A DNA stretch of 64,000 bases, taken from contig OX597818.1 of NCBI GenBank assembly GCA_951406725.2, positions 119,288,001 to 119,352,000 of the forward strand, written 5' to 3'. Position numbers and translations under genes: made by a program. This document shows, piece after piece, positions 8,960-30,241 of the stretch. Under the pieces are notes generated by a model that saw only the letters and a program-made list of their open reading frames with translations, was not told where the DNA came from and made no database searches. The first letter of the stretch is position 1. Every line of letters starts with the position of its first letter. The stretch comes from Octopus vulgaris (Eukaryota).

Positions 8960-9150
8960 GGGAGAATTCACAAAAAACTAGAGACGAAGGCAGCTGGTGT
9001 AGACAACAAACAGATGTTTTAGTATAACGCTCGGGAAGTAGAAAAGCCTTTAACGTTTCGAGCCTATGCTCTTCCACAGAAAGGAACACAGAAAGAAACA
9101 AGGAGAGAAAATAAAGAATGTGTAGTGGCTAGCGATCTATCATGGCGAAT
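8960..9150 (-). mobile_element. Hammerhead-bearing short element between (TA)n tracts (Penelope pLTR/retrozyme-like)
   Basis: Flanked by TA tracts; related end fragments at about 2726-2802, 16308-16377 and 27830-27901; similar to 20205-20400 and 26774-26890. Confidence 0.65.
9047..9084 (-). ncRNA. Minimal type I hammerhead-like motif with variant core CUGUGGA
   Basis: CCTTT-CTGTGGA-A-GAGC atag GCTC-GAAAC-GTT-AAAGG: 5-bp stem I, 4-bp stem II, palindromic ACGT stem III. Confidence 0.65.
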
Positions 9151-9326
9151 AATAGATACACACACACACATATATACATAAATATGTGTGTGTATATATA
9201 TATATATATATATATATATATATATAATATTAATTAGAGACAAAACCAATATTATGCAAATCAAACAAAGAAAGACTTAATCCAATACATAAAAAAATTT
9301 ATATAAATTAAATAAAATTAAGTTAT

Positions 9327-9372
9327 CCACTACAATTGTTTCTTGTCACTTCTAAGGACATTCATCAGGTGG
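9327..9372 (-). ncRNA. Minimal type I hammerhead ribozyme
   Basis: CCAC-CTGATGA-a-TGTC cttagaagt GACA-a-GAAAC-AATT-GTA-GTGG: intact core, palindromic stem III ACAATTGT, GUA site. Confidence 0.8.
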
Positions 9373-9398
9373 TTTTCATACCTTCTATTCAATTTTAA

Positions 9399-26890: not shown

Positions 26891-27137
26891 TATATATATA
26901 TATATATAAAGTAAAAAACACAACATACGGAAATCTTCAAAACATAACAAGCAGTAAAAGGACAATAGCACAACGATCATTCGCAGCCAATTGCTTCTTC
27001 AGTCGGAATCTGGAATCACGTACTTTCGCCCAATAATGAAAAAATAAATGCTATAGTTATCCACATTATACAGCTCAACCTATTAGCGTTCTAATGGAGC
27101 TTCAGGAACATAAAATTAACTACTCTTTGAATCCCTT

Positions 27138-27226
27138 AACTCTGATGAACGAAATATAGATAACTGCTAAGGCTGGAGTTAGCTCGCCCATATCAATCTA
27201 TATCTCCTCGAAACGGCCGTAAGATT
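27138..27226 (+). ncRNA. Type I hammerhead with long stem II
   Basis: CTGATGA 27142-27148; ATATAGAT/ATCTATAT helix; GAAAC-GGCC-GTA 27210-27221 (palindromic stem III); stem I weak. Confidence 0.7.
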
Positions 27227-28614
27227 GTGTACTTATTTAGGATTCGTCATGAATCATCTTATACTAACTTTCTTATCTACACTCCTCGTTTATTCCAATA
27301 CGGACATTCGGACATTACAAGTTCGCAAGTACATTTATGTATTTATATCTATGTGTTTATATATTTATGATTTTTTATGTTTGTAAATTTTTATATATTT
27401 ATGAACTTTTATATGTTTATAAATCTTCGTATGTATGTGTGTTTATAAATTATTATAAATTTTTATCATATCTCATATATGTTAACGCATCTATGTATAT
27501 TGTATATTGTGGATAATTTCGATAATTTGAAATGGATTGAATAAATATATATACTAATCTTTGATCATTGAAATTTGTTTCTCTCCTACTTAATTTTATA
27601 TATATATATATATATATATATATATATATATATATGTATGTATGTGTGTGTGTGTAGATGTAGATATACAGATAGATATATATGTATGTATGTAACTATG
27701 CAAATAGACAAATAAAATTCCTTCGGATATCATTTGAACGCTACTAAGTGTTTCCTATATTGAGTCTCTAGATCTCACCTATTGTGTGTGAATGTGTGCG
27801 TGTGTGTGTTCATATATTCTTATGTGTGGTTCAAATCTTTAGAAAACAAAAGACAATGACAGGTGAAGAAGAAACAACTCGCAGGTGCATTCGTTTGACG
27901 TTTATTAAGACATGATAATCAACAACGGAAAATTATACATTTCTCGGATATATTTATTAACGTATTTTCTTCATTTTCCATTACAGATATGTTTTCATTA
28001 TATATTCTATATGCTACAAGCGTTCCAATGAAACGACATTTAGATTTGCGTATCAGATTATGTACATTTTAATTGTTAATCCTAAATGTTTGCGAATATT
28101 CCTGAATATTTTCTGGGTTAAGTGGATCTGGATTGTATAAGAGTGCTCCTAGGGTAACTGCACAGACTTTTAATCTTTAATCCTGTAAATCATATGTGTG
28201 CGTGTGTGTTTATGTCTGTATACACGCACGCACACAGGTGCGCACTTAAGTGCAAAAGAAAGTGGAAGAAATAGTATAGTACTCAAATATCAAAGGTAGA
28301 GTAATGTCATTTTATTAATGCTGCAAAATGATTACAGAACAGTCATTGAGTTTCACGTGAAACTCTGAGAAACATTTCTGTGACAATTTTACAGATTTAA
28401 TATATATATATATATATATAGATATATATATATATATATATATATATCACAAAACTTTGATTGACCCGAGGCTATAGCAGAAGATACCCAAGGTGCCACG
28501 CAGTAGGACTGAACCCGGAACTATGTTCTTGGGAACTAAGCTTCTTACCGCACAGACAGTCCTACACCTATATATATATATATATAACAAAGTAACGTTT
28601 TAAGATACCGCACG

Positions 28615-30241
28615 AAGGAAAGAAGTTTTGAAAATTCAATTTTAAAGATGTCAAAAGTAAAATGAAAAGCTTTGTATAAGCTTTGTTGTGTTAAATACTG
28701 GTTGTCGCAAAAGTATTAAAATACAGTTATACATTCTTTGATAATAATAAGAAAATGTTAAAAACAGTTTGCAAGAAAGTATTTAAGAAAGTATTCAGCA
28801 AAATGTATTAGGAGTTCAATAAAAATTGTTTGTTTGGTAGTATATATACATACACACAGAAGGAGATATATTTAATAATTTGCTATTTTTTTCTGTCTTG
28901 TGTGTCGCTAGGGAATGTTTGCTATTGTAAGGGAGAGTGTTGGAGGATGGTTGGGGTGGAGCAAGTAAGAGCAATGTGGAATTAAAAGGATTTTCTTGAT
29001 TCTGGACTATTCTGTCATGGTTCAGTGGTTTTCAGAACTGGTCTTAGAGGTCAGAATGATGTTTGTGTCTCTTTGTACCTCTCTTTGTATGTGTGTATAT
29101 ACATGTGTTTGTGTGTGTGGGCCGTTTTTGATTGGTCCTAGAGTTTATTGTGGCTTGTGTGTATGGGCTTCTGTGTGTTTTATATTTTGTAGGTTGGTGT
29201 GTGTATATGTGTGCACGTTCGTGTGTGTGTATGTGCGTGATTAATATTTGTTAGGGTGTTGTGTGTGCGCATGTGTGTATGTGTTTATTCGCGTGTGTTT
29301 ATGTGTTCGTCTGTATGTACGTGTGTACGTTTGTTGATTTGTTTTGGTGGTATGTTATGTGTGTGTACTTGAGTGTGTGTGTGTGCAAACGTATGTGTGT
29401 AAGAGTGCATATGCATGTGTGTGTGGGTATGTATGTGTGTGAGTGTGTTGTATTTATCAGGGTTTCTGTGCGCATCCGTGTGTGTTGGGTTTATCCGGGT
29501 GGTGTGTATGTGTGTGCAAGTGCGTTTTGTACATGTTGGTATTGAGTATGCCTTTGTGTGTGAGTGTATATATGTGGGTATGCTTTATGTACTTTCCGGG
29601 TGTGTATGTGCACATGTGCGTGTGCTGTATTTGTAAGTGATTCGTTTTGTTTGTATTGTTAGTGCAGTGTGTGTATATATGTGTGGGTGTGTTTGCGTGA
29701 GTGTCTATGTGTCTCGTATTTGTCGGGGAGGTGTGTGTGATTGTGTGTGTGCATTCTTGTGTGTATGTGTGTTTGTGAGTGTGTGTTGTGATTGTTGGGA
29801 TTGTATTGTGTGCATATGTGTGGGTCTTTTTTAGTTTGTGTGTGTGGTCCCTTAAAATAGCAAACATTTCCTTGCTACACACAAGACAGAAAAAATGCCA
29901 AAAAGACAGGTAGGTTCCTCACCAATTTTTTGCAAATTCTTTAATATATCTCCTTCTGTGTATATATATACTACCAAACAAACAAATATGATTTTTATTG
30001 AAATCTTAATACTTATTGTTGAACACTTACTTAAATACTTTCTTGAAAACTGTTTTTAACATTTTCTTATTATTTTCAAAGTATGTATATATGTATTTTA
30101 ATACTTTTGTGACAACCAGTACTTAACACAACAAAGCTTTTACAAAGCTTTACATTTTACGTTTGACAATCTTTTTCTAAACAAAGTGAAACCAGTCAAG
30201 TGAATAAACATCTTTAAAATCGCATTTTCAAGCCTTCTTTC
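28615..30241. mobile_element. Large foldback element with 320-390-bp inverted arms around decayed GT-rich sequence
   Basis: Arm at about 28615-28935 is the reverse complement, with indels, of about 29848-30241; flanked by TA runs. Confidence 0.85.

What the first reader, a model, noticed from the sequence alone, without database searches (positions are those of the whole stretch)
9047..30241. Cluster of hammerhead ribozymes in short ORF-less islands inserted in (TA)n microsatellites
Seen: six motifs with intact CUGANGA/GAAA/NUH cores (9327-, 16169-, 16216+, 23507+, 24700-, 27138+; stem I is weak in the last). There are also several variant or decayed ones (9047-, 19335+, 20273+, 24782+, 26529-, 26870-, 30150+). 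They share topology (type I, usually tiny or palindromic stem III) but little primary sequence. Almost all lie in 100-700 bp islands bounded by (TA)n, several as inverted pairs. Established: Penelope-like elements carry minimal type I hammerheads in their pseudo-LTRs, often form inverted pLTR structures, and non-autonomous metazoan retrozymes exist. Inference: this is a diverse community of (TA)n-targeting, ribozyme-processed non-autonomous retroelements. It could place self-cleavage sites in both orientations through introns and intergenic transcripts.
Basis: partly seen in the sequence, partly recalled or inferred. Interest (0 to 1): 0.9.

Follow-up and report, generated by a model that had tools for sequence, protein, structure and literature searches.

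The report
Penelope retrotransposon stubs carrying hammerhead motifs
The hammerhead-ribozyme-shaped motifs are real, but most are tail-end stubs of Penelope-like jumping genes that sit in TA repeats all over this octopus-like genome, a known kind of element; the new detail is two abundant lineages with altered catalytic cores whose cutting activity is untested.

Summary
The motifs are real: 4 strict hits against 0.01 per shuffle. The window is not a special cluster. A 580-kb genome sample held 17 strict motifs in 10 insertions, versus 3 insertions here (P about 0.1).

Each island belongs to a dispersed repeat family whose 3' end abuts (TA)n. Six families trace to ORF-bearing Penelope-like elements (PLEs). 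Four are Hydra-type: the 16.2-kb island is 100% identical to the pLTR of an intact 713-aa RT/GIY-YIG element. Two are Neptune-type. So most islands are 5'-truncated, inverted pLTR stubs, not retrozymes. Only the 23.5-kb family (473-nt head-to-tail unit, no ORF found) fits a retrozyme.

Several 'decayed' motifs are family-wide core variants: U3-A8 (published), A3-U8 (14 of 14 copies) and U6 (95 of 100; 18,254 pattern matches). I did not find the last two in print. Unequal arms favour priming on both target strands, with joining near stem I.

PLE hammerheads, (TA)n targeting and one octopus Hydra element are published. This scan noted similar stubs in other genomes. Cleavage is untested.

The parts
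8956..9150 (-). Family G9 stub (Neptune-type PLE pLTR). Minimal hammerhead with variant core CUGUGGA (U6), core at 9073-9079.
   Evidence: 18,254 exact pattern matches, U6 in 95 of the first 100. GIY-YIG about 1 kb upstream of two copies in L350.
9228..9400 (-). Family E inverted arm (Hydra-type pLTR) with canonical hammerhead, core to cut site 9331-9368.
   Evidence: A relative about 93-95% identical flanks an RT+EN reading frame on both sides in L316.
9399..12991 (+). 42 copies of an 85-bp unit that spans the 3' end (presumed RT start site) of an E-type pLTR. It forms the second arm of the E insertion and has no hammerhead.
   Evidence: The unit occurs once at up to 100% identity in E-type pLTRs elsewhere.
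16084..16220 (-). Family C tail-bearing arm (Hydra-type pLTR), hammerhead 16175-16213.
   Evidence: 100% identical over 136 nt to the pLTR just before the intact ORF in L280. 4,866 exact tail matches.
16215..16283 (+). Family C inverted short arm, hammerhead 16222-16260, joined at the palindromic AGCT of stem I.
19254..19455 (+). Family F stub. Minimal hammerhead; family core UUGACAA (U3-A8). This copy has an extra U4C change.
   Evidence: 27 of 29 relatives UUGACAA
20206..20400 (+). Family G20 stub. Minimal hammerhead CUGACGA, with GAAA mutated to AAAA in this copy.
23314..23786 (+). Family A, 473-nt ORF-less unit with canonical hammerhead 23513-23561. Retrozyme-like: head-to-tail partial tandems elsewhere.
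   Evidence: Head-to-tail junction in 16 of 19 loci. No PLE coding sequence linked upstream.
24590..24830 (.). Family D insertion: hammerhead 24706-24756(-) plus a decayed inverted arm at about 24780-24830(+).
   Evidence: EN C-terminus about 1 kb upstream in L205 and L206.
26476..26760 (.). Family H insertion (Neptune-type). The minus arm carries a hammerhead with core AUGAAUA (A3-U8) near 26525-26565. The plus arm (26647-26760) carries the tail and no hammerhead.
   Evidence: 14 of 14 relatives. RT and EN in L313 and L307.
26775..26887 (-). G20-type stub truncated inside stem II; no CUGANGA present.
27111..27600 (+). Family B stub (Hydra-type), hammerhead with long stem II at 27134-27228.
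   Evidence: RT, CxCx5C linker and GIY-YIG upstream in L137-L142. Pfam GIY-YIG E=5e-4, just below its cut-off.
28600..30249 (.). Second family F insertion: long minus arm with GT/CA-rich UTR, and a plus arm with a decayed U3-A8 hammerhead near 30150.

Best explanation
Most of the islands are 5'-truncated, often inverted copies of the terminal repeat (pLTR) of Penelope-like retrotransposons, which carries a type I hammerhead motif, and they were likely made when the element's endonuclease nicked both strands of a (TA)n tract and its reverse transcriptase copied the RNA from each nick. Shown: family membership, ORF links for six families, fixed 3' ends at (TA)n, two distinct end positions per family, and 5' ends piled up at the hammerhead's upstream edge. 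Inferred, from the published in vitro behaviour of an Anolis PLE: each nick primes cDNA at one of two internal start sites downstream of the hammerhead. Both cDNAs usually stop near stem I and are joined head-to-head at short palindromes that the ribozyme stems supply. The template was uncleaved or re-ligated RNA, because copies span the cut site and do not start at it. The stubs are probably dead on arrival, and a transcript across a perfect inverted pair would form a long hairpin instead of a ribozyme. One family (473-nt unit) is likely a true ORF-less derivative mobilised in trans.
For: C: the window arm is 100% identical to the pLTR that precedes a 713-aa open frame with RWR, DKT, YRDD, CxCx5C, YIG and CxxC..CxH motifs; the next hammerhead lies 4,784 bp on. 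150 of 150 scored EN-region hits are 94-100% identical and several have 680-722-aa open frames. E: hammerhead-ORF-hammerhead in L316. B, D, H and G9 link to RT/EN sequence. TA-type repeat right after the 3' end: A 19 of 19, C 30 of 30, F 26 of 29, D 12 of 19, against 10.6% of random positions. Unbiased C sample: 24 of 30 direct arms start at -22..+25 of C3, 6 run more than 180 nt further, and 0 start at the cut site (+39). 23 of 30 have an inverted arm ending at +57..+66, while the tail ends at +132. In L283 and L285 the short-end arm carries the ORF, and in the window the E and H short-end arms hold a hammerhead that the other arm lacks. A single fold-back cDNA cannot give either pattern. Literature: PMC11167929 (both strands nicked and extended, two internal RT starts, hammerhead cleavage dispensable in vitro); PMC4209133 (dual hammerheads 100-700 bp apart on opposite strands, attributed to truncated PLEs); PMC8557442 (Hydra clade, (TA)n, Hydra-1_Obim).
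Against: No ORF link was found for family A. F has one short RT-thumb fragment in 1 of 8 extended loci, and G20 was not followed upstream. Clade assignment rests on motifs, not on a tree with reference elements. Pfam gave no RT hit for the intact ORF. The D and E samples were chosen by similarity to the window copy, so their end statistics are biased. One of the 24 C starts (L234) was read by eye because the script's alignment overran. Why cDNAs stop at stem I is not resolved: an RNA 5' end, an RT stall or palindrome-driven joining would all fit. No biochemical data.
Confidence: 0.85

Rival explanations
1. The islands are non-autonomous retrozymes that travel as hammerhead-processed circular RNAs and are copied by rolling-circle reverse transcription.
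For: Family A is an ORF-less 473-nt head-to-tail unit (16 of 19 loci). A 359-bp tandem of 7 hammerheads turned up in the random sample (L147). Copies span the cut site, as a ligated circle would. Described for animals in PMC7229834 and bioRxiv 10.64898/2026.07.22.740005.
Against: Six families run into RT/EN sequence in longer copies. C junctions are heterogeneous, so each was made anew. A 250-bp tandem with the same two-arm, TA-flanked anatomy shows no match to the hammerhead part of family E (L279), so multimers need not imply cleavage.
Confidence: 0.15
2. The elements are PLE stubs, but the inverted arm arises by fold-back: one cDNA ends at the stem I palindrome, self-primes and copies itself.
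For: Many C junctions sit on the AGCT palindrome and give near-perfect hairpins.
Against: Arms that contain sequence absent from the other arm: window E and H, L216, L283, L285. The inverted arm ends at a fixed second site (+57..+66 in C, position 396 in A), which matches the two-start-site 'tail' signature.
Confidence: 0.2
3. The scattered motifs are active cleavage sites co-opted to cut host intronic or intergenic transcripts.
For: High density, about 29 strict motifs per Mb in the sample, in both orientations. C and A have 3-4 bp stem III helices that could fold as monomers.
Against: Copies decay individually. PLE minimal hammerheads cleave poorly or need protein (PMC4209133, PMC11167929). 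Perfect inverted pairs would mask the fold. No host gene was identified in the window.
Confidence: 0.05

Closest known systems
Hydra-clade Penelope-like elements (Craig et al. 2021, PMC8557442), including Hydra-1_Obim from Octopus bimaculoides
   Same: C-terminal GIY-YIG, RWK-like motif, DKT, CxCx5C linker, CxxC and CxH around the conserved E and N, canonical type I hammerhead (often with U-U at the base of stem II), (TA)n insertion, inverted 5'-truncated arm.
   Different: Different families, with hammerheads unlike the one listed for Hydra-1_Obim. Family C has a 4.8-kb unit with a long microsatellite-like 3' UTR (published ones are generally under 3 kb), thousands of stubs and intact young copies.
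Neptune-type PLEs and their minimal hammerheads (Cervera and De la Pena 2014, PMC4209133)
   Same: DKG, YLDD, CX2-5CxxC linker, CCHH GIY-YIG; minimal hammerhead with palindromic stem III; U3-A8 variant; pairs on opposite strands.
   Different: Family-wide A3-U8 (H) and U6 (G9) cores, not found in two searches or in the passages read.
Metazoan non-LTR retrozymes (PMC7229834; bioRxiv 10.64898/2026.07.22.740005)
   Same: Family A: ORF-less, AT-rich, head-to-tail unit with one type I hammerhead per unit.
   Different: Mostly dispersed 1-1.6-mers with PLE tail and inversion anatomy. Circular RNA not shown. The other families are not ORF-less lineages.
Poseidon of Anolis carolinensis (Frangieh et al. 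2024, PMC11167929)
   Same: Two end positions downstream of the hammerhead, both target strands used, AT-rich targets, uncleaved template.
   Different: Different clade. In family C the stubs end about 50 nt before the ORF's first ATG rather than inside the ORF.

Membership tests
Type I hammerhead motif | Core CUGANGA/GAAA/UH with three helices, above chance | tested here: met
   4 vs 0.01; 17 vs 0. In C, variation concentrates at N7 and in loops II and III.
Type I hammerhead motif | Watson-Crick 3-8 pair | tested here: met
   C-G in A-E and G, U-A in F, A-U in H. Mismatched-core controls C3A8 and U3G8 gave 0 hits in 580 kb.
Type I hammerhead motif | Rfam RF00163 gathering score | tested here: not met
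   0 of 7 window-derived loci. In the genome search only 6 matches were over the cut-off among 73 scored of about 263,000 candidates. The model appears to fit these long-loop or minimal forms poorly.
Type I hammerhead motif | Self-cleavage | not testable with these tools
Hydra-clade PLE (families C, E; B and D partly) | Single ORF with RT and C-terminal GIY-YIG between hammerhead-bearing repeats | tested here: met
   L280/L281 and L282; L316 (reading frame broken). 1,118 homologues of about 700 aa.
Hydra-clade PLE (families C, E; B and D partly) | RWK, DKT, CxCx5C, CxxC/CxH, no CCHH | tested here: met
   Translations, compared by eye with the definition and the Hydra-1_Obim alignment rows. D shows only the EN C-terminus.
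Hydra-clade PLE (families C, E; B and D partly) | Insertion into (TA)n | tested here: met
Hydra-clade PLE (families C, E; B and D partly) | Placement in the RT phylogeny | not tested
   No reference PLE proteins were available as tool sequences
Hydra-clade PLE (families C, E; B and D partly) | Generally under 3 kb | tested here: not met
   C unit is 4,784 bp; E unit is 2,979 bp. This is a tendency, not a strict criterion.
Neptune-type PLE (families H, G9) | CX2-5CxxC linker and CCHH GIY-YIG upstream of the hammerhead | tested here: met
   L313 and L307; L350, two copies at one locus. Nematis shares these motifs and is not excluded.
Non-LTR retrozyme (family A) | ORF-less tandem unit with a type I hammerhead | tested here: met
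   No PLE coding sequence upstream in 19 loci and 3 extensions; the sample is small.
Non-LTR retrozyme (family A) | Circular RNA or monomer RNA | not testable with these tools
Non-LTR retrozyme (families B, C, D, E, H, G9) | ORF-less lineage | tested here: not met
   ORF links

The most novel reading that the evidence does not exclude
Two very abundant PLE lineages have kept non-canonical hammerhead cores under selection: A3-U8, and a U6 core with a freely varying N7 across diverged subfamilies (at least 18,000 copies). Either these are new natural, protein-assisted catalytic variants, or the fold is kept for a non-catalytic job such as marking where cDNA stops and the two arms join. The young, intact Hydra-type element makes this directly testable.
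Probability: 0.35. Interest if true: 0.65.

Novelty: new member of a known kind. Interest (0 to 1): 0.38.

Why it matters
The finding as framed is explained by known biology. What remains useful: (1) hammerhead-bearing PLE stubs are a large, under-annotated part of this genome, about 29 strict motifs per Mb in the sample; the octopus repeat paper checked has no 'hammerhead' or 'ribozyme' in its main text. (2) An intact, recently active Hydra-type element is available for biochemistry. (3) Insertion anatomy gives genomic support for two-strand, two-start priming, shown in vitro for one PLE. (4) Natural core variants (C-G, U-A and A-U at 3-8; U6) offer a comparative test of what the PLE hammerhead is for, which is an open question.

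Tried and rejected
Whole-window Rfam scan by E-value: the 150 rows shown of 537 were microsatellite-driven miRNA hits plus one viral UTR hit, with no hammerhead among them. The mir-3199/MIR9555 hits at 16.2 kb only reflect the hairpin and are rejected.

MFE z-scores were uninformative. Pfam missed the RT of the intact ORF.

An EN fragment near a family A locus (L017) lies downstream and belongs to another element. The RT fragment upstream of G9 in L348 is followed by a different hammerhead-like repeat and was not counted as a link. EN hits near F loci L059, L060 and L072 were not counted either.

My first clade guess (Neptune for B and C) was dropped after reading the Hydra definition. The idea that the 190-bp palindrome moves as a MITE-like unit came from a biased top-40 list and was dropped after the unbiased sample.

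Expression: no RNA holder was listed on record. Laying four guessed-RNA contig sets on the C element gave no joints and cannot show ends or strand, so it is not used as evidence.

Host gene context was not determined. Copy-number extrapolations from the 580-kb sample are rough (C, F and H had 0 hits there), and the B count is inflated by low-complexity matches.
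Full report
1. Observation. A type I hammerhead descriptor finds four strict motifs in the window and a fifth under looser settings, against means of 0.01 and 0.04 in 100 local dinucleotide shuffles. The sixth (27138+) has a weak stem I here but a canonical core in 15 of 19 relatives. 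The variant motifs listed are present; 26870- is only a 3' half. Rfam does not recognise the window motifs at its gathering score, and folding energy alone is unremarkable. The evidence is the core-plus-helix pattern and its behaviour across copies.

2. Not a special cluster. The genome is 2.8 Gb in 227 contigs. Its SINE and repeat content looks like octopus to me; that is recalled resemblance, supported by motif similarity to a published octopus element. In 58 evenly spaced 10-kb stretches the strict descriptor found 17 motifs in 10 insertions, with 0 in each of 5 shuffles. The window's 3 insertions give P=0.10, or 0.25 after scaling for its higher TA density. The five commonest window families give 6 observed against 3.0 expected (P=0.08). 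All hits fall in 9-30 kb, so local nesting in TA tracts is plausible but not established.

3. Each island is a dispersed family. First-look candidates (only 40 scored each) were A 3,554, B 374, F 2,613, C 440, D 1,834, E 785 and H 1,284. Exact patterns gave 4,866 for the C tail and 18,254 for G9, with 0 for the reversed controls. 3' ends are fixed and followed by TA-type repeats in A 19 of 19, C 30 of 30, F 26 of 29 and D 12 of 19, against 10.6% at random; G9 22 of 30 by a looser test.

4. Links to coding elements.
C: 6 of 30 unbiased copies extend upstream. Two extended loci (L240 from that sample, L246 fetched for family F) reach RT and EN about 3.1-3.4 kb upstream. L280 shows hammerhead (100% identical to the window arm over 136 nt), a 713-aa open frame from the first ATG, a long UTR and the next hammerhead 4,784 bp on. 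All 150 scored EN-region hits are 94-100% identical.
E: hammerhead-ORF-hammerhead in L316.
B: RT, linker and EN directly upstream.
D: EN end about 1 kb upstream in two loci.
C and E show the full Hydra-clade motif set defined in PMC8557442 section 11; B shows DKT, the linker and the EN motifs; D only the EN motifs. The paper's supplement lists Hydra-1_Obim from an octopus, with (TA)n preference and a hammerhead, and several Hydra hammerheads with the same U-U stem II base as C.
H and G9 link to Neptune-type sequence: DKG and YLDD in H, a CxxxCxxC or CxxxxCxxC linker and CCHH endonuclease in both.
F has one RT-thumb fragment in 1 of 8 extended loci.
A has no link, and its upstream neighbour is its own 3' end in 16 of 19 loci, so it fits a non-LTR retrozyme. 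G20 was not followed.

5. How the stubs form. In the unbiased C sample, 24 of 30 direct arms start between -22 and +25 of C3, 18 of them between -6 and +5. Six run more than 180 nt further, and none starts at the cut site at +39 (L234 read by eye). 23 of 30 have an inverted arm ending at +57 to +66, while the tail ends at +132. Family A shows the same two ends, at unit positions 396 and 473. Junctions are heterogeneous and favour short palindromes in the ribozyme stems. Either arm can be the long one (L283, L285), and in the window the E and H short-end arms hold a hammerhead that the partner arm lacks. This fits the in vitro result that a PLE nicks and extends both strands from two internal start sites on uncleaved RNA (PMC11167929). 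The step from that result to these elements is inference. The reason for the stop at stem I is open. Earlier notes of this scan report the same pile-up in other genomes; they are unchecked AI notes and not independent support.

6. Core variants. F has U3-A8 in 27 of 29 relatives, a variant already reported in Schistosoma PLEs (PMC4209133) and elsewhere (PMC3088659). H has A3-U8 in 14 of 14. G9 has U at position 6 in 95 of the first 100 genomic matches (A in 3), with U4 in 95, G5 in 97 and N7 free (U 45, A 24, C 19, G 12; hand count). N7 states track diverged flanks. CpG decay explains part of the N7 spread but not the A and G states. A natural A6C variant is published with low activity. Searches for A3-U8 and A6U hammerheads found no describing paper in the listings; the library is incomplete, and the single A6U listing, a twister paper, was not opened. 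In C, variation across 39 arms concentrates at N7 and in loops II and III. This pattern suggests selection on the fold in parental lineages but does not show catalysis.

7. Comparison and verdict. Works like, and by motifs belongs to, endonuclease-positive PLEs of the Hydra and Neptune types, with one retrozyme-like derivative. Hammerheads in pLTRs, opposite-strand pairs 100-700 bp apart, (TA)n targeting and the PLE origin of animal retrozymes are all in print. Novelty: new members of a known kind, with possibly new core variants. Interest 0.38.

Papers seen: PMC4209133 parts 1-2 of 4. PMC8557442 passages, section 11, supplement part 2 of 59 and supplement searches. PMC11167929 parts 1-3 of 4. 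bioRxiv 10.64898/2026.07.22.740005 parts 1-3 of 5, no supplements. Passages only: PMC7229834, PMC3088659, PMC7151607, PMC13282606.

Noticed in passing
window 9399-12991: The 85-bp x42 array is built from about 30 nt of an E-type pLTR tail plus about 55 nt beyond its usual 3' end. It may be a minisatellite born at the RT start site, by repeated re-priming or by later DNA-level expansion (an 850-bp higher-order period is visible). No other array of this unit was among the 40 candidates scored of 135.
   Followed up: partly
L279 (G000:C9:50396511-50399406): 250-bp tandem of an E-type pLTR derivative with no match to the hammerhead part, arranged as 3 inverted plus about 9 direct units between TA tracts.
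   Followed up: partly
L147 2278-4542: Near-identical 359-bp tandem with 7 canonical hammerheads (2 inverted, 5 direct), TA-flanked: a textbook retrozyme-like array.
   Followed up: no
L280-L281 (G000:C4:75253588-75258505): Intact Hydra-type element with about 2.5 kb of microsatellite-like 3' UTR. Many other copies share a frame break between RT and EN (225-aa open frame).
   Followed up: partly
window 20206-20400 and random-sample copies: Most G20 copies seen carry U4C (CCGAC.., 8 of 11), so this is another family-level core change. No ORF link was tested.
   Followed up: partly
window 28236-28400: Another TA-flanked repeat with a palindromic GAAAC-containing junction and a tail like other PLE tails; probably a further decayed PLE stub.
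   Followed up: no
window 4025-4282: Decayed Neptune-type GIY-YIG C-terminal fragment (tblastn E=3e-13 with the family H bait).
   Followed up: no
window 8052-8525 and 21000-22060: Mariner-type transposase fragment and a fragment that looks like a LINE RT region; both labels are from recall.
   Followed up: no
L209, L217: The two arms of single C insertions differ at positions that are subfamily variants elsewhere, which hints at two RNA templates. Two cases only, seen by eye.
   Followed up: no
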